Assembly (NCBI GenBank): GCA_963815325.1 | Contig: CAWFGG010000002.1 | Location: 709,472-773,471 of the forward strand | From: an uncultured Gemmatimonadales bacterium | GTDB lineage: Bacteria > Gemmatimonadota > Gemmatimonadetes > Gemmatimonadales > GWC2-71-9 | Length of the DNA stretch: 64,000 nt | Direction: 5' to 3' | Part shown: positions 51,443 to 58,322 of the stretch, in pieces | How the letters are laid out: each line of letters opens with the position of its first letter | Numbering within the stretch: position 1 is the stretch's first letter | Translations under genes and position numbers: made by a program | Notes under the pieces: model-generated | Database searches by the model: none | What the model saw: the letters and a program-made list of their open reading frames with translations, nothing else | Told to the model about the DNA's origin: nothing

Positions 51443-51769
51443 TTAGATACACCCGCGCGGCTTGGGAATCCCGGCGATCCTGGCGGCCAGTTTGGCCGGA
51501 CCCTTGGGAAACAACTGGTAGAGTTCCTTGATCGGCACGCCCGATTCCTTACCGAGGGCCCGGATCGAGGGCGCACTGCCGGCCTCGAGAAACCGCTTTC
51601 GCATGAATTCGATGACCATCCAATGCTTCGGGGTGAGTTCGCCAATCCCGATGTCGTCAGCGATTTCCTCGGCAATCGACTTGGTCCACTGCTCTGGCTT
51701 CTGCATGTACCCTTCGCCGTCGACATCGACGGTCTGTCCGGCAATTGTGGTCTGGCTCGTCGCGGTCAC
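51443..51769 (-). CDS. TusE/DsrC-family sulfur carrier
   Basis: 108 aa. 'LTPKHWMVIEFMRKRFLE' and the C-terminal arm 'GIPKPRGCI', which has a single Cys (TusE-like). Confidence 0.8.
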   Translation of the reverse strand: MTATSQTTIAGQTVDVDGEGYMQKPEQWTKSIAEEIADDIGIGELTPKHWMVIEFMRKRFLEAGSAPSIRALGKESGVPIKELYQLFPKGPAKLAARIAGIPKPRGCI

Positions 51770-51790
51770 AGGCTTGACTCCTTCTCGTAA

Positions 51791-53104
51791 CTAGGCAACC
51801 TGACTGGGGATTTCTTCGGGTGATACCTCTGGTACCGGCTCCTGGGGTGTATGCGGGAGCGGTCGCTTGCCGCGCATCGACATGTGGCTCGACGTGCCTG
51901 GAATGTGCCGACCAGGCAACAGCATGTTCCAATAGATCCACCGAAACGCCAACTTGCCGATGTGGTTGAGCCGGCTCTCCTTGAGAAGCGGCAACGGACC
52001 GAGCACGGGAATGGGAAACATCCCCGGCAACGGCTCAACATTGTAGTTGAAGTCGATCAGCAGCGCCTTGTTGAATCCGGTTTCGATGAAACAATTGGCA
52101 TGGCCGTCGAAGCCATGCTCGAGCGGGCTGTCCTGCAGGTAGAGTCGGACATTGTGCTCGAGGATTTCCGCCTGGAAATGCGCCACCGATCCGGCCTTGG
52201 AGGCCGGTACGTTGGTGGCGTCGCCGATGGCGAAGATGTTCGGCTTGACCTCGGCCTGCAGGGTCCGCTGATCCACTATCACAAAGCGCTGATCGTCGCC
52301 AAGCCCATCCGTCTCAGCAATAAACTCCGCGCCCATATGCAGCGGAACGCTCACCAGGAGATCGAAGTCTACCACGCGGTCGTCCCACGACACTAACCGT
52401 CCGTTGGGACCGTCGACCTCCCCCGCGTTGAATTCCGTCACGAGACGGACACCCTTCTCGGTCAGGAGATGGGTCAGGGCTTTGGCACACGTCGGCTTGG
52501 TAAACGCGCTATCCAACGGTGTCACATAGGTGATGTCGACCTTGTCCCGAATCCCGCGCTCGGTGAAGTACCAGTCCGCCAGAAATGCGAACTCGAGCGG
52601 GGCCACCGGACATTTGATCGGCATATCCACGATGTCCACCACGAGGCGCCCGCCCTCCCACCGCTCGAGGGCGTCCGCCAAGGCTACCGCGCCTTCCAGG
52701 GTGTAGAACTCGAATATGCGTTCACCCCATCCGGCACCGGTCAGCCCAACCGTCTCTTCGGGAGCGATCTGCGTGCCCGTTGCGATGATGAGCACGTCAT
52801 AGGGCAGCTTCCGCCCGTCTGCCAGCACGACCTCATTGGTGTCCGTCAGGACACGACGGATCCCGCTCTCGATCCGGTTCACTTCGCTCGGAAGGCAATC
52901 TACCTGACGCCGGACGAGATCCTCCGGTTGGTAGATCCCGAAGGGAACGAACAGCAATCCCGGCTGATACAGGTGAGTCCTATCCTGATCGACGATGGTG
53001 ATACTCAGGGCCTCGCACTTGATCTCCTTCCGGTAGAGCCGTGAGAGGCGATTGGCCATGATGGTCCCAGCAGTTCCCGCTCCCAAGATCACAATTTGCT
53101 TCAT
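51791..53104 (-). CDS. sulfide:quinone oxidoreductase-like FAD-dependent disulfide reductase
   Basis: ATG 53104 'MKQIVILGAGTAGT' inside track ORF 51791-53332. 'IKCPVAPLEF', 'IFAIGDATNVPASKAG', 'HANCFIETG'. Confidence 0.75.
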   Translation of the reverse strand: MKQIVILGAGTAGTIMANRLSRLYRKEIKCEALSITIVDQDRTHLYQPGLLFVPFGIYQPEDLVRRQVDCLPSEVNRIESGIRRVLTDTNEVVLADGRKLPYDVLIIATGTQIAPEETVGLTGAGWGERIFEFYTLEGAVALADALERWEGGRLVVDIVDMPIKCPVAPLEFAFLADWYFTERGIRDKVDITYVTPLDSAFTKPTCAKALTHLLTEKGVRLVTEFNAGEVDGPNGRLVSWDDRVVDFDLLVSVPLHMGAEFIAETDGLGDDQRFVIVDQRTLQAEVKPNIFAIGDATNVPASKAGSVAHFQAEILEHNVRLYLQDSPLEHGFDGHANCFIETGFNKALLIDFNYNVEPLPGMFPIPVLGPLPLLKESRLNHIGKLAFRWIYWNMLLPGRHIPGTSSHMSMRGKRPLPHTPQEPVPEVSPEEIPSQVA

Positions 53105-53122
53105 CGGTGCGGCACTCCAGGG

Positions 53123-53161
53123 TCGAATTGGGCGAATCGCCAAAACCCAATTGCGATTCGA
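53123..53161. promoter_or_regulatory. interleaved inverted repeats in a GC-poorer divergent intergenic region
   Basis: 'aattggg' (53126-32) with 'cccaatt' (53146-52). 'cgaatcgc' (53133-40) with 'gcgattcg' (53153-60). Outer 'tcgaat' (53123-28) with 'attcga' (53156-61). Begins 19 nt upstream of the SQR ATG. Confidence 0.35.
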
Positions 53162-53391
53162 GTTGCCGGAAATTGTCATGAAACCTATAAAGACAGCCCC
53201 AATGCCATCTGAAGATATCTTCATTCTTTGAGCCTGAGCCCTCCTCACGGTTGCCGCTTCGAGCGTTCCGGAACGGCGCCACAGGGGCCTGGGGCATGGA
53301 CATTGCGCCGCTCCTGGCCAGCCTGCGTGCAAGAATGAGAGGCCCCGGCATCTCCCCCTCGAGCACGCTCGACCCGAACCCGGGAGCCCTC

Positions 53392-57204: not shown

Positions 57205-57412
57205 TGCACTCCTCCCTTCCAGGGCGGTCCAACACCATAGGGTAGGGGCAAGGGGCATACCGTGACCGTGATTACTTCGGGTTATATTCGGTGTTCCAGG
57301 ACGAGCCTGGCTCGAGCGGCTGAGGAGGTAGTGAAACGGGATCTCTTTACCCATATTGGCAGTGCGCCGTCCGTTGGCGCACCGGTGTCCGCGCCCAATG
57401 TGTCCCCGAACC

Positions 57413-57426
57413 AAGGAGGTGATCCA
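57413..57426 (+). promoter_or_regulatory. extended Shine-Dalgarno 'aaggaggtgatcca' (14 nt complementary to the canonical 16S rRNA 3' end)
   Basis: Read directly. The reverse complement 'tggatcacctcctt' equals the conserved bacterial 16S 3' terminus (established knowledge). A TTG follows at optimal spacing. Confidence 0.45.
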
Positions 57427-57489
57427 TTGTCTAGTCCGTGTACCGTCTGCGTCCCGGCATGGGCAAGCGATCGCCGTCTCGGTAGCTAA
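57427..57489 (+). CDS. candidate 20-codon mini-ORF 'MSSPCTVCVPAWASDRRLGS'
   Basis: TTG 7 nt after the GGAGG core, TAA at 57487-57489. In frame with track ORF 57262-57489. Very short and speculative. Confidence 0.2.
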   Translation: MSSPCTVCVPAWASDRRLGS

Positions 57490-57555
57490 CGGGTAGCAAT
57501 CGCGAATCTCCGCGACGTTCGGTGCCGATCGGCATCGTGCCGGGTCGCAGAGGTG

Positions 57556-57592
57556 AAGAAGCGCCGTGGCCACTCGAGCCTCGGCGCTTCTT
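57556..57592 (+). terminator. strong hairpin in the long intergenic region
   Basis: 11-bp stem 'aagaagcgccg'/'cggcgcttctt' with a 15-nt loop, followed by 'gtgt'. Could terminate a short transcript. Confidence 0.3.
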
Positions 57593-57740
57593 GTGTCGAC
57601 GGACCGGCCTCGCGGGGGACTGGCGCAGGGCCAGGACCATGTTATTCCTTCATCCGCTCACGAGCGACCATGCCGGCCACGTGGGAGCGGGGGCCGACGT
57701 CATACATCATCTCCCTACAATTCGGTGTTGTGGAGGCAGT

Positions 57741-58322
57741 ATGTTTTCGAAGTCGCTGCATACCGTGGCGGCGGTAGGTGCCCTCATGTTCCTGGCCGGC
57801 TGCGCCAACCAACGTGTGCCAGCCGAGGCCGCCCTCCAGGCGGCAGAGCAGGCCGTGGCGGCGGTACGCCCCGAGGCCGAGCAGTATGCTTCGGACGGCC
57901 TGAAGGCGGTGGACGACGAGCTCGCGTTCATCAAGGAGAGCATGGACGAGAAGAAGTACGGAGCCGCCATGAGCGCGGCCAAGGACTTGACCGCCAAGGT
58001 CACAAAGCTGGAGCAGGCGGTGACGGCCAAGAAGGACGAGCTGACCCAGGGCTGGGGTCCGATGGCCGACAGCCTGACCACCATGGTCGGTCAGCTGGAG
58101 GCGCGGGTGGCCCAGCTCGCGTCGTCCCGCCGCCTGCCGGCCGGGATGACCAAGGGTCAGGTTTCCGAGGCCCAAGCATCAGTTCAACAGCTCAAGGATT
58201 CGTGGACCCAGGCCGCGGAGAGCTTCAAGGGCGGTAAGCTTGCCGAGGCCGTGACCATGGCCGCGAGCGTCAAGTCGAAGGCAGCCGAGCTGATGAACAA
58301 GCTCGGGTCGACGGGCGCCTGA
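57741..58322 (+). CDS. alpha-helical lipoprotein of unknown function
   Basis: ATG behind 'ggagg'. Lipobox 'FLAGC'. Ala/Lys/Glu-rich helical sequence. Confidence 0.65.
   Translation: MFSKSLHTVAAVGALMFLAGCANQRVPAEAALQAAEQAVAAVRPEAEQYASDGLKAVDDELAFIKESMDEKKYGAAMSAAKDLTAKVTKLEQAVTAKKDELTQGWGPMADSLTTMVGQLEARVAQLASSRRLPAGMTKGQVSEAQASVQQLKDSWTQAAESFKGGKLAEAVTMAASVKSKAAELMNKLGSTGA

What the first reader, a model, noticed from the sequence alone, without database searches (positions are those of the whole stretch)
57205..57740. 535-nt non-coding gap with a 14-nt anti-16S Shine-Dalgarno, a 20-codon CxxC mini-ORF and strong hairpins
This is the longest gene-free stretch in the window and is visibly less GC-rich. 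Features read directly:
- 'aaggaggtgatcca' (57413-57426) is the exact reverse complement of the canonical 16S rRNA 3' terminus 'tggatcacctcctt'. This is far longer than ordinary SD sites.
- A TTG lies 7 nt after the GGAGG core and opens 'MSSPCTVCVPAWASDRRLGS' (57427-57489).
- Hairpins: 'gtgcgcc gtccgtt ggcgcac' (57362-57382), the 12-nt palindrome 'tgccgatcggca' (57522-57533), and an 11-bp stem 'aagaagcgccg'/'cggcgcttctt' (57556-57592) followed by 'gtgt'.
- 'attcggtgtt' occurs at 57286 and again at 57720, just before the SD of the downstream lipoprotein gene.

Together these could be a small-protein gene, a leader-peptide attenuator for the 57741 lipoprotein, or an sRNA. I could not match it to RNase P, tmRNA, SRP, 6S or a riboswitch consensus by eye.
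Basis: partly seen in the sequence, partly recalled or inferred. Interest (0 to 1): 0.55.

Follow-up and report, generated by a model that had tools for sequence, protein, structure and literature searches.

The report
Ribosome-docking mini-mRNA with self-masking start
The gap holds a free-standing gene for a roughly 235-base RNA in a Gemmatimonadota bacterium. Its ribosome-binding site matches nearly the whole free tail of 16S rRNA and precedes a conserved 20-codon reading frame, making it a previously unreported relative of the poorly understood alphaproteobacterial 'rre' small mRNAs.

Summary

The element is not a lone oddity. It is one member of a large family of stand-alone small genes in Gemmatimonadota. 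A search that did not select for the ribosome-binding site (RBS) gave 111 unique relatives:
- 101 carry GGAGGTGATCC.
- 110 start with TTG.
- 100 have exactly 20 codons, ending in varying stop codons.

Flanking genes differ and point either way, so this is not a leader for the lipoprotein gene. A long helix and the terminator covary strongly.

The invariant motif GGGCAAGCGAUCGCC inside the ORF is complementary to the 3' half of the Shine-Dalgarno sequence (SD) plus the UUG. It gives two near-isoenergetic folds, one with the RBS masked and one with it open.

The closest known systems are:
- the rreB/rreR small mRNAs of alphaproteobacteria (Hahn et al. 2016), which bind 30S subunits, are weakly translated and have no known function;
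- Rfam CC2171.

The window element fails their formal criteria: 14 nt rather than at least 16, 19 bits against a threshold of 75, and a different phylum. I call it a new variant of a known kind. The CxxC and the 10-nt repeat are not conserved.

The parts
57329..57357 (+). Putative promoter: -35 TAGTGA (57329-57334), 17-nt spacer, -10 CATATT (57352-57357)
   Evidence: The two hexamer blocks are conserved in L003 and L004 while the spacer between them diverges. The match to consensus is weak, at 7 of 12, and the consensus scanner did not call it. This is inference only. Other family members show CTTGC-N17-(A/T)ATACT-like boxes about 35-45 nt upstream of the SD.
57362..57382 (+). 5' terminal hairpin GUGCGCC-GUCCGUU-GGCGCAC, a lineage-specific 5' extension
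   Evidence: It forms an 8-bp stem in every fold. It is conserved in L003 and L004 with one loop change. It is absent from most other family members, whose promoter sits directly upstream of the leader.
57383..57412 (+). 5' leader with the near-invariant GCGCCC(A/G) block (57391-57397)
   Evidence: GCCC is at least 90% conserved across the 68 aligned members. It is complementary to the GGGC of the bulge, but the flanking position shows no covariation: 47 of 122 paired against 46.9 expected. Its role is unexplained.
57413..57426 (+). Extended Shine-Dalgarno AAGGAGGUGAUCCA, complementary to the 16S rRNA 3' tail UGGAUCACCUCCUU
   Evidence: The match is exact. In 111 SD-unbiased relatives, GGAGGTGATCC is present in 101. 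Contiguous complementarity to the canonical tail has a median of 13 nt and a range of 8-16. The predicted duplex with a canonical tail is -24.8 kcal/mol.
57427..57489 (+). Mini-ORF: TTG start, 20 codons (MSSPCTVCVPAWASDRRLGS), TAA stop
   Evidence: Among SD-unbiased relatives, TTG is the start in 110 of 111 and the ORF has 20 codons in 100 of 111. Stops are TGA 56, TAA 29 and TAG 15. Indels come in multiples of 3. The peptide sequence varies except where the RNA is constrained.
57461..57475 (+). Intramolecular anti-RBS GGGCAAGCGAUCGCC (codons 12-17), which pairs with 57418-57432 (GGUGAUCCAUUGUCU)
   Evidence: It is the only invariant block besides the RBS. Thirteen of 15 positions pair, as 7 bp, a 2x2 internal loop and 6 bp. 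Natural variants fall in the internal loop or keep wobble pairs. Mean pair probability is 0.32 across 68 members. No synonymous variation is seen, and in L044 the motif lies out of frame.
57446..57459 (+). 5' strand of the long closing helix P1 (ORF codons 7-11)
   Evidence: It pairs with 57538-57551. Covariation is strong in 68 sequences.
57530..57551 (+). 3' strand of the rod. 57538-57551 pairs with P1. 57530-57537 (CGGCAUCG) pairs with GCGAUCGCCG of the anti-RBS and so acts as an anti-anti-RBS.
   Evidence: Shown. Helix 2 is 94.9% paired. The duplex between the anti-RBS and this strand is -15.8 kcal/mol.
57556..57592 (+). Intrinsic-terminator-like hairpin (AAGAAGCGCCGUGGC / GCCUCGGCGCUUCUU), followed by GUGU
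   Evidence: Compensatory changes occur in L004. Ten of 11 pairs covary across the family and 94.8% of cells are paired. Many relatives have a U-tract, but the window copy has only GUGU. The consensus scanner therefore did not call it.
57362..57597 (+). Inferred whole transcript, about 235 nt
   Evidence: The block at about 57355-57595 is nearly invariant between the window and L004, while the flanks and the adjacent protein (74% aa identity) diverge. The fold z-score is -3.84. The ends are inferred, not mapped.

Best explanation
The gap encodes a stand-alone, roughly 235-nt small mRNA/sRNA hybrid of Gemmatimonadota that works like the alphaproteobacterial rre ('ribosome-regulated expression') RNAs.

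Its 5' part carries an SD extended on the 3' side (A-GGAGG-UGAUCC). This can pair with essentially the whole single-stranded 3' tail of 16S rRNA. A weak UUG start and a 20-codon ORF follow.

The RNA is bistable.
- As it is made, the invariant intra-ORF motif GGGCAAGCGAUCGCC pairs with the 3' half of the SD, the UUG and codon 2. This is the closed form, in which only about 5 nt, AAGGA, stay free as a toehold.
- Once the 3' strand (57530-57551) is transcribed it can capture the ORF and the anti-RBS in a long rod. This frees the RBS.

A 30S subunit then docks through a duplex (about -25 kcal/mol) that is stronger than the internal mask (about -17 kcal/mol). The over-long SD duplex, the UUG start and the rod make initiation and escape slow. 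The RNA would therefore mostly sit on 30S subunits and be translated only weakly. A ribosome that does translate unzips the rod up to the apical stop codon.

Shown here:
- family-wide conservation of the RBS, UUG, ORF length and stop position;
- covariation of the rod and the terminator;
- the anti-RBS complementarity and its balanced energies;
- independence from neighbouring genes.

Inferred from rreB experiments, not tested here:
- 30S binding;
- weak translation;
- ribosome-dependent decay.

The physiological output is unknown. I think the RNA-ribosome interaction is more likely to be the functional product than the peptide. The only conserved residues (M, S, and W/R-A-S-D-R) coincide with RNA pairing elements.
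For: **Family and conservation**
- The 20-mer found at least 120 species genomes where about 3 would be expected. They span Gemmatimonadota, Alpha-, Beta- and Gammaproteobacteria and Nitrospinota.
- An SD-unbiased metagenome scan gave at least 120 loci. Among 111 unique sequences, GGAGGTGATCC occurs in 101 and TTG in 110. The ORF has 20 codons in 100, with stops TGA 56, TAA 29 and TAG 15.
- The 57355-57595 block is nearly invariant against L004, whose adjacent protein is only 74% identical.

**Structure**
- The fold z-score is -3.84.
- In RNAalifold, 17 of 26 pairs carry compensatory changes.
- 87.8% of cells are paired against 74.0% in shuffles (0 of 500 reached it). There are 300 double-change cells against 96, and slid controls give 32-46%.

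**Anti-RBS**
- Ensemble pairing of cols 70-83 with 121-134 has p about 0.32. The rod has p about 0.55.
- In the window RNA, the closed form is -111.1 and the rod is -114.3 kcal/mol.
- Prefixes up to 57530 fold closed.
- Across the family, closed minus rod has a median of +1.35 kcal/mol, and the closed form is better in 28 of 68.

**Stand-alone unit**
- The downstream gene is on the same strand in 53 loci and the opposite strand in 47. The largest neighbour family covers 21 loci.

**Analogy**
- Hahn et al. 2016 (PMC5711450) describe rreB, with 17-nt complementarity and a 14-aa sORF. It co-sediments with 30S subunits and is weakly translated. Its start codon is needed for turnover. All but 5 nt of its SD region, and the start codon, sit in a conserved hairpin.
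- Rfam CC2171 shares AAGGAGGUGAUCCA-N-UGUCU and a terminal hairpin. It also scores rreR-like and Rhizobium elements significantly.
Against: - No transcript, 5'/3' end, ribosome-binding or translation data exist for this organism.
- The organism's 16S 3' end was not available, so the tail sequence is assumed to be canonical.
- Both strands of the RBS:anti-RBS helix are invariant, so no compensatory change can prove it. In the single window sequence, 20 of 500 dinucleotide shuffles give an equally good RBS partner.
- The two conformers are mutually exclusive only in a nested-structure model. A pseudoknot combining both was not evaluated.
- The promoter assignment is weak: 7 of 12 consensus positions, and it was not called by the scanner.
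- The window terminator lacks a U-tract, so read-through into the lipoprotein gene cannot be excluded for this lineage.
- Homology to rre/CC2171 beyond the RBS is undetectable. The resemblance could therefore be convergent.
Confidence: 0.7

Rival explanations
1. It is primarily a small-protein gene. The 20-aa peptide (MSS...[W/R]ASDR...) is the effector, and the extended SD and the structure only tune its synthesis.
For: The start codon, the 20-codon length, the frame and the stop position are conserved, with all three stop codons in use. Hahn et al. regarded RreB and RreR as conserved small proteins.
Against: - The conserved residues map onto RNA elements. UCU pairs with GGG, and ASDR is the anti-RBS.
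- That motif shows no synonymous variation in a high-GC clade. Its few variants are non-synonymous (S>N, D>G, S>T), and in L044 it lies out of frame with a 14-aa ORF.
- The two differences between the window and L004 inside the ORF are both non-synonymous.
- The middle of the peptide varies together with its helix partner.
- The CxxC is not conserved.
- Synthetic RreB and RreR were unstructured, and overproduction gave no phenotype.
Confidence: 0.17
2. It is a leader-peptide transcription attenuator, or 5' regulatory region, of the downstream lipoprotein gene at 57741.
For: The lipoprotein gene is on the same strand, 145 nt after the hairpin. This synteny holds in L001-L004. The window hairpin lacks a U-tract, so some read-through is plausible.
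Against: - Across 116 family loci the downstream gene is on the same strand in 53 and convergent in 47, and it belongs to many families.
- More distant lipoprotein homologues (42% identity) sit in another context without the element.
- No run of regulatory codons is present.
- The terminator hairpin is intact in both the closed and the rod conformer, so no antiterminator appears.
- Many relatives have strong U-tract terminators.
Confidence: 0.05
3. It is a purely trans-acting base-pairing sRNA or sponge. The SD-like stretch is a seed that titrates CU-rich (anti-SD-like) sRNAs or mRNAs rather than ribosomes, and the ORF is incidental.
For: It has its own promoter and terminator, a rod-like structure and an exposed purine-rich 5' segment. 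CC2171 is catalogued and detected as an sRNA.
Against: - An incidental ORF would not keep TTG in 110 of 111 relatives, a fixed 20-codon length and a stop that alternates among three codons.
- The conserved stretch matches the 16S tail well beyond the CCUCC core (UGAUCC), which typical anti-SD sRNA motifs would not require.
- rreB binds 30S subunits directly.
Confidence: 0.07
4. It is an ordinary strong SD of an unannotated or spurious ORF in a long promoter-rich divergent intergenic region, and the 14-nt match is chance.
For: Divergent intergenic regions are long and AT-richer. No Rfam family reaches its gathering score.
Against: The motif is hugely over-represented across genomes. It is also conserved in SD-unbiased homologues, and there is strong structural covariation.
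Confidence: 0.01

Closest known systems
rre small mRNAs: rreB of Bradyrhizobiaceae, rreR of Rhodobacterales, and analogues in Caulobacterales, Rhizobiales and Rhodospirillales (Hahn et al., RNA Biol 2017;14:1353, PMC5711450)
   Same: - It is a stand-alone small transcript of about 165-235 nt with its own promoter and terminator.
- The SD is extended into near-complete complementarity with the 16S 3' tail.
- A very short sORF of 14-20 codons follows immediately, with a weak non-AUG start.
- The 3' part of the SD and the start codon are predicted to sit in a conserved internal helix, leaving about 5 nt free as a seed.
- The genomic context is not conserved between clades.
- The peptide is not conserved between clades.
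   Different: - The phylum is Gemmatimonadota, not Alphaproteobacteria.
- Complementarity is 14 nt in the window, with a clade median of 13 and a conserved core of 11-12. rre has 16-17 nt.
- The 5' extension (GAAA), which is crucial in rreB, is not conserved here.
- The complementarity stops before the start codon rather than including its first base.
- The start is UUG, not GUG.
- The ORF has 20 codons.
- The anti-RBS motif is different (GGGCAAGCGAUCGCC, inside the ORF).
- A long covarying rod is present.
- No sequence similarity is detectable beyond the RBS.
- None of the rreB experiments has been done for this clade.
Rfam RF01867 CC2171 (Caulobacter sRNA of unknown function)
   Same: The consensus begins cAAcaAucGAAAGGAGGUGAUCCAGUGUCUCAU. 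It therefore shares AAGGAGGUGAUCCA-N-UGUCU, a closing helix around the ORF region and a 3' terminator hairpin. The window hit spans the whole model, positions 1-159. The model also scores Rhodobacterales 18-codon (rreR-like) and Rhizobium elements at E of 1e-5 to 4e-4. By inference it is therefore the Caulobacter branch of rre.
   Different: The window scores 19.4 bits against a gathering score of 75 (E 0.079), driven by the RBS and the terminator. Another Gemmatimonadota member (L097) gives no hit at E<=0.01. Rfam treats CC2171 as a non-coding sRNA.
Dual-function sRNAs and liberated leader RNAs (for example rnTrpL/peTrpL of Sinorhizobium; SgrS/SgrT and RNAIII/hld from general knowledge)
   Same: It is a small structured RNA that also carries a translated mini-ORF. 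Translation and RNA conformation are coupled.
   Different: - No target mRNA or regulated operon is evident.
- The peptide is not conserved independently of the RNA.
- The defining feature here is pairing with the 16S tail itself.
Translational riboregulators with an RBS, anti-RBS and anti-anti-RBS three-part switch (general principle, for example thermosensors and riboswitch expression platforms; from general knowledge)
   Same: Three mutually complementary segments give a masked and an open RBS. The two states have near-equal predicted energies, and the masked form folds first.
   Different: - No ligand or aptamer is evident.
- The anti-RBS lies inside the very ORF it controls.
- The presumed 'ligand' is the ribosome's own rRNA tail.

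Membership tests
rre small mRNAs (Hahn et al. 2016) | Stand-alone small transcript with its own promoter and terminator, not tied to a fixed neighbour | tested here: met
   The conserved block is bounded by a promoter-like footprint and a covarying terminator. Neighbouring genes vary, with 53 on the same strand and 47 on the opposite strand. The transcript itself was not observed.
rre small mRNAs (Hahn et al. 2016) | At least 16 nt of perfect complementarity to the 16S 3' end, reaching the first base of the start codon | tested here: not met
   Complementarity is 14 nt in the window and ends just before the UUG. The clade distribution is 8-16 nt with a median of 13, and only 3 of 111 reach 16. 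This assumes a canonical 16S tail.
rre small mRNAs (Hahn et al. 2016) | Very short sORF directly after the extended SD, with a weak start codon (GTG; ATG in Azospirillum) | tested here: met
   A 20-codon ORF is present in 100 of 111 relatives and a TTG start in 110 of 111. The start codon differs from GTG but is likewise weak.
rre small mRNAs (Hahn et al. 2016) | Most of the SD region and the start codon lie in a conserved internal helix, with about 5 nt free at the 5' side | tested here: met
   57418-57432 pairs with 57461-57475, leaving AAGGA free. This is a prediction supported by invariance, not by covariation.
rre small mRNAs (Hahn et al. 2016) | Strong association with 30S subunits, weak translation and start-codon-dependent turnover | not testable with these tools
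   These are experimental properties of rreB only.
rre small mRNAs (Hahn et al. 2016) | Detectable sequence or structure homology to known members | tested here: not met
   nhmmer with the Gemmatimonadota body profile finds no proteobacterial element at E<=10. The CC2171 model scores 19.4 bits.
Rfam RF01867 CC2171 | Covariance-model score at or above the gathering threshold of 75 bits | tested here: not met
   The window scores 19.4 bits with E 0.079. Nothing reaches the gathering score in the window or in 18 motif loci.
Ribosome-dependent transcription attenuator (leader peptide) | A conserved regulated gene immediately downstream on the same strand | tested here: not met
   The downstream gene is on the same strand in 53 loci and the opposite strand in 47. 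The largest same-strand downstream family covers 19 of 116 loci.
Ribosome-dependent transcription attenuator (leader peptide) | Mutually exclusive terminator and antiterminator helices controlled by ribosome position | tested here: not met
   The terminator hairpin is intact in the MFE fold and in both the closed and the rod conformers. Only this one sequence was examined, and only with nested folding.
Ribosome-dependent transcription attenuator (leader peptide) | Regulatory codons (runs of one amino acid) in the leader peptide | tested here: not met
   The peptides are variable and show no conserved codon runs.

The most novel reading that the evidence does not exclude
Small RNAs that pair with the whole free 3' tail of 16S rRNA are not an alphaproteobacterial curiosity. 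They would be an ancient, or repeatedly invented, class spanning several phyla: Gemmatimonadota, Alpha-, Beta- and Gammaproteobacteria and Nitrospinota.

On this reading the Gemmatimonadota version is a bistable 'ribosome-sensing' RNA. Its own RBS is unmasked by the 30S tail or by completion of the transcript. Its real function would be to report or modulate the pool of free 30S subunits. Examples are parking or protecting the tail, or coupling RNA decay to ribosome availability. Making a peptide would not be the point.
Probability: 0.3. Interest if true: 0.8.

Novelty: new variant of a known kind. Interest (0 to 1): 0.6.

Why it matters
The rre/CC2171 RNAs are documented to sit on 30S subunits, yet no function is known for them. 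The only paper describing them in the literature I could search reports them only from Alphaproteobacteria.

This window shows the same design in an unrelated, mostly uncultured phylum, with hundreds of members. That design is an extended SD, a weak start, a mini-ORF and a self-masking RBS.

The breadth of the family argues for a basic role linked to translation. The conserved anti-RBS gives a concrete, testable switch model. The finding also shows that the conserved 'protein' residues can be explained by RNA pairing, which redirects the search for function from the peptide to the RNA-ribosome complex. It adds a well-supported unannotated gene to Gemmatimonadota genomes as well.

Tried and rejected
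- **Rfam.** At gathering thresholds there were no hits in the window or in 18 related loci. E-value mode gave only the weak CC2171 lead and a spurious P17 hit on the terminator.
- **Consensus promoter and terminator scan.** It found nothing.
- **Literature search for the motif string.** It returned only an unrelated YbeY paper. Searches by the name rreB and by citing papers found no follow-up outside the original laboratory.
- **First neighbour analysis.** Stop-to-stop ORFs were swamped by spurious high-GC frames, and Pfam found almost nothing. I replaced it with GC3-filtered ORFs, which remains crude.
- **Brute-force terminator finder.** It timed out.
- **Leader GCCC to bulge GGGC pseudoknot.** The flanking position shows no covariation, so I dropped it as unsupported.
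- **Covariation between start codon and anti-start motif across clades.** It is clear in Gemmatimonadota (UUG:CAA) and in two Nitrospinota (CAAUGG). It is not general in Proteobacteria, where 66 of 91 sequences lack a simple motif. I do not claim it.
- **The 75-aa in-frame upstream extension (57262-57489).** It has no Pfam hit, and its 5' part lies in non-conserved sequence.
- **RiPP precursor or type I toxin readings.** I rejected both. There are no conserved biosynthetic neighbours, and the peptide is neither hydrophobic nor conserved.
- **No covariance model was built.** A model of about 230 nt would exceed the calibration limit.
Full report
**Observation.** The sequence is as described.
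- AAGGAGGTGATCCA lies at 57413-57426.
- TTG lies at 57427.
- A 20-codon ORF (MSSPCTVCVPAWASDRRLGS) ends with TAA at 57487-57489.
- There is a hairpin at 57362-57382, a palindrome at 57522-57533 and a long inverted repeat at 57556-57592.

The 14-mer is unique in the window. The gap is a divergent intergenic region between a minus-strand 148-aa gene starting at 57205 and a 193-aa lipoprotein gene at 57741. Public gene calls on near-identical contigs leave the gap empty. GC falls to 0.59-0.63. No Rfam family reaches its gathering score anywhere in the window.

**First lead.** In permissive mode, Rfam gave a weak full-length match of 57408-57591 to RF01867 CC2171, a Caulobacter sRNA of unknown function (19.4 bits, gathering score 75, E 0.079). 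The alignment shares AAGGAGGUGAUCCA-N-UGUCU and the 3' hairpin. A preprint confirms that CC2171 is expressed as an sRNA in Methylorubrum and that its function is unknown.

**Close relatives.** The lipoprotein has homologues at 88% and 74% identity in syntenic MAG contigs L003 and L004. In the alignment of the three intergenic regions, the block at about 57355-57595 is almost invariant while sequence on both sides diverges. The 3' hairpin carries compensatory changes in L004. The only two differences inside the mini-ORF are non-synonymous (R17P, L18F). The ATTCGGTGTT repeat is not conserved.

**A large family.**
Hits came from Gemmatimonadota, Alpha-, Beta- and Gammaproteobacteria and Nitrospinota. 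The window organism is a Gemmatimonadales MAG.
- The ORF after the motif has 20 codons in Gemmatimonadota and mostly 23-26 in Proteobacteria. The peptides are poorly conserved.
- That set was selected for the SD. I therefore scanned metagenomes with a pattern containing neither SD nor start codon (TCTAGT-N23-28-GGGCAAGCGATCGCC). This again gave at least 120 loci.

Among 111 unique sequences from the unbiased scan:

| Feature | Count (of 111) |
|---|---|
| GGAGGTGATCC upstream | 101 |
| Spacer to start of 7 nt / 6 nt | 83 / 27 |
| Start codon TTG | 110 |
| ORF of exactly 20 codons | 100 |
| Stop codon in those 100: TGA / TAA / TAG | 56 / 29 / 15 |

Contiguous complementarity to a canonical 16S tail has a median of 13 nt and a range of 8-16. 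Length changes come in multiples of three. A stop that stays in place while its identity changes, plus a conserved weak start, indicates that the ORF is really translated.

**RNA-level constraint.** The block GGGCAAGCGAUCGCC (window 57461-57475, codons 12-17) shows no synonymous variation in the SD-selected genome set. Its few variants are non-synonymous. In L044 it lies out of frame in a 14-codon ORF. The CxxC of the window peptide is specific to this lineage.

**Structure.**
- The window RNA folds much better than shuffles, with z = -3.84.
- I aligned 68 non-redundant Gemmatimonadota-type members (A3). RNAalifold found a closing helix between ORF codons ~7-11 and the segment just 5' of the terminator, plus the terminator itself. 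Seventeen of 26 pairs carry compensatory changes.
- For my extended model of 30 pairs, 87.8% of cells are paired against 74.0% in shuffles (0 of 500 reached it). There are 300 double-change cells against 96. Slid controls give 32-46%.
- In the window the helix is 57446-57459 with 57538-57551. It continues as 57468-57476 with 57530-57537. UGGGCAAG is bulged, and the stop codon lies in the inner part of the rod, towards its apex.

**A self-masking RBS.**
- Averaging base-pair probabilities over the 68 sequences revealed a second structure competing with the rod. GGUGAUCCAUUGUCU (57418-57432: the 3' half of the SD, the UUG and codon 2) pairs with the invariant GGGCAAGCGAUCGCC. Thirteen of 15 positions pair, as 7 bp, a 2x2 internal loop and 6 bp. 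Mean probability is 0.32, against 0.55 for the rod.
- The positions that vary naturally are the internal-loop positions: the base(s) between GAUC and UUG in the RBS, and G126/C127 in the motif. The other variants (A>G, C>U) keep wobble pairs.
- For the window RNA (57362-57597) the rod is the MFE at -114.3 kcal/mol. The closed form is only 3.2 kcal/mol higher.
- All transcript prefixes up to 57530 fold closed. The rod wins only when its 3' strand exists.
- Predicted duplex energies are -17.4 (RBS:anti-RBS), -15.8 (anti-RBS:3' strand) and -24.8 (RBS:canonical 16S tail).
- Across the family, closed minus rod has a median of +1.35 kcal/mol (IQR -1.5 to 5.0). One of the two is the MFE.

Caveats on this helix: it cannot show covariation, because both strands are invariant. 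In the single window sequence, 20 of 500 shuffles offer the RBS an equally good partner. Two Nitrospinota members have an analogous CAAUGG-GAGC-CUCC. Many Proteobacteria carry CCUYC-containing motifs near the ORF end, but a general anti-start motif is not evident there.

**Independence from neighbours.** I used GC3-filtered ORFs in 116 Gemmatimonadota-type loci. The nearest downstream gene is on the same strand in 53 and convergent in 47. The largest neighbour family covers 21 loci. Together with the terminator, which persists in both conformers, this argues against an attenuator of the lipoprotein gene. Read-through in this particular lineage cannot be excluded, because the window hairpin is followed only by GUGU.

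**What is known.**
- A literature search found Hahn et al. (RNA Biol 2017, PMC5711450). rreB of Bradyrhizobiaceae is a 165-nt mRNA with 17 nt complementary to the 16S 3' end, a GUG start and a 14-aa sORF.
- It co-sediments with 30S subunits. It is translated weakly because of the extended SD and the GUG. It is stabilised when the start codon is removed.
- All but the first 5 nt of its complementarity region, and the start codon, are predicted to lie in a conserved hairpin.
- Analogues with at least 16 nt were reported only in Alphaproteobacteria: rreR in Rhodobacterales, and others in Caulobacterales, Rhizobiales and Rhodospirillales. The function 'remains elusive'.
- No follow-up was found.
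- The CC2171 model scores Rhodospirillaceae ATG variants at 67-73 bits, Rhodobacterales 18-codon elements at 40-42 bits and a Rhizobium element at 36 bits. It gives nothing for a Gemmatimonadota member. By inference, CC2171 is the Caulobacter branch of rre.
- A profile of the Gemmatimonadota RNA body finds every Gemmatimonadota member but no proteobacterial one.

**Verdict.** The finding is a genuine, unannotated gene. It is a Gemmatimonadota counterpart of the rre/CC2171 ribosome-binding small mRNAs.
- It works like them: an extended SD, a weak start, a mini-ORF, a masked RBS with a 5-nt toehold, and a stand-alone unit.
- It fails their formal membership criteria: 14 nt rather than at least 16, no homology beyond the RBS, and another phylum.
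- It has features of its own: the UUG start, 20 codons, an intra-ORF anti-RBS and a covarying rod.

I rate it a new variant of a known kind. The function is unknown. The best-supported mechanism is docking on the 16S tail, controlled by a two-state RBS. 30S binding and weak translation are inferred from rreB and were not shown here.

Noticed in passing
window 57670-57698 (palindrome CCACGTGG at 57677-57684): Between the element's terminator and the lipoprotein start, the block ATGCCGGCCACGTGGGAGCGG(G/C)GGCCGAC is nearly conserved in L003 and L004 while its surroundings diverge. It contains an 8-nt palindrome. It may be an operator or promoter element of the lipoprotein gene.
   Followed up: no
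L011, L014, L025, L038, L040, L043, L067, L069, L070, L081, L116 (Azospirillum and relatives): Here the same perfect RBS (GAAAGGAGGTGATCCAATGTCTCAT) precedes a 57-60-codon ORF with a signal-peptide-like N-terminus (MSHGASPVVAALFGLATLLTAGIANADC...), not a mini-ORF. Hahn et al. noted that the Azospirillum rre gene is plasmid-borne and starts with ATG.
   Followed up: partly
L047 and L068 (contigs labelled Klebsiella MAGs): Two contigs binned as Klebsiella carry a proteobacterial-type element (MSSEINQVS...) resembling those of uncultured Gammaproteobacteria. Either the contigs are mis-binned or the element has an unexpected host.
   Followed up: no
Proteobacterial loci, e.g. L018, L029, L085, L094: Two motifs recur in these loci. 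One is GGAGCAGCCUUCG, or GGGGCAGCCCUCG, near the ORF end, often presented as a hairpin loop. The other, in Rhizobiales-like members, is ACCUCCUUCGG just after the stop, which is identical to part of the 16S tail. Both may be intramolecular mimics of the 16S tail.
   Followed up: partly
L027:5129-5280: An FMN riboswitch (115 bits) lies roughly 60 nt downstream of the element's terminator in Pelagibacterium luteolum. This is probably coincidental adjacency.
   Followed up: no
window 51443-53332, minus strand: This is a lower-GC stretch (0.59). It holds a 513-aa FAD-dependent oxidoreductase-like ORF, which looks like sulfide:quinone reductase by eye, next to a 108-aa ORF that looks DsrC/TusE-like. 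My GC3 filter missed both, and the composition hints at horizontal acquisition.
   Followed up: partly
window 57427-57435 and family-wide: Codons 2-3, UCU AGU, are shared by Gemmatimonadota and many proteobacterial members, and the CC2171 consensus also has UCU as codon 2. UCU is explained by pairing with GGG in Gemmatimonadota. The AGU is not explained, and part of this conservation was forced by my search patterns.
   Followed up: partly
L064 and L080 (the same MAG, bin.319): Two contigs of one MAG carry identical copies of the element, one of them at a contig end. This is either a duplicated region or an assembly split. All other genomes showed a single copy.
   Followed up: no
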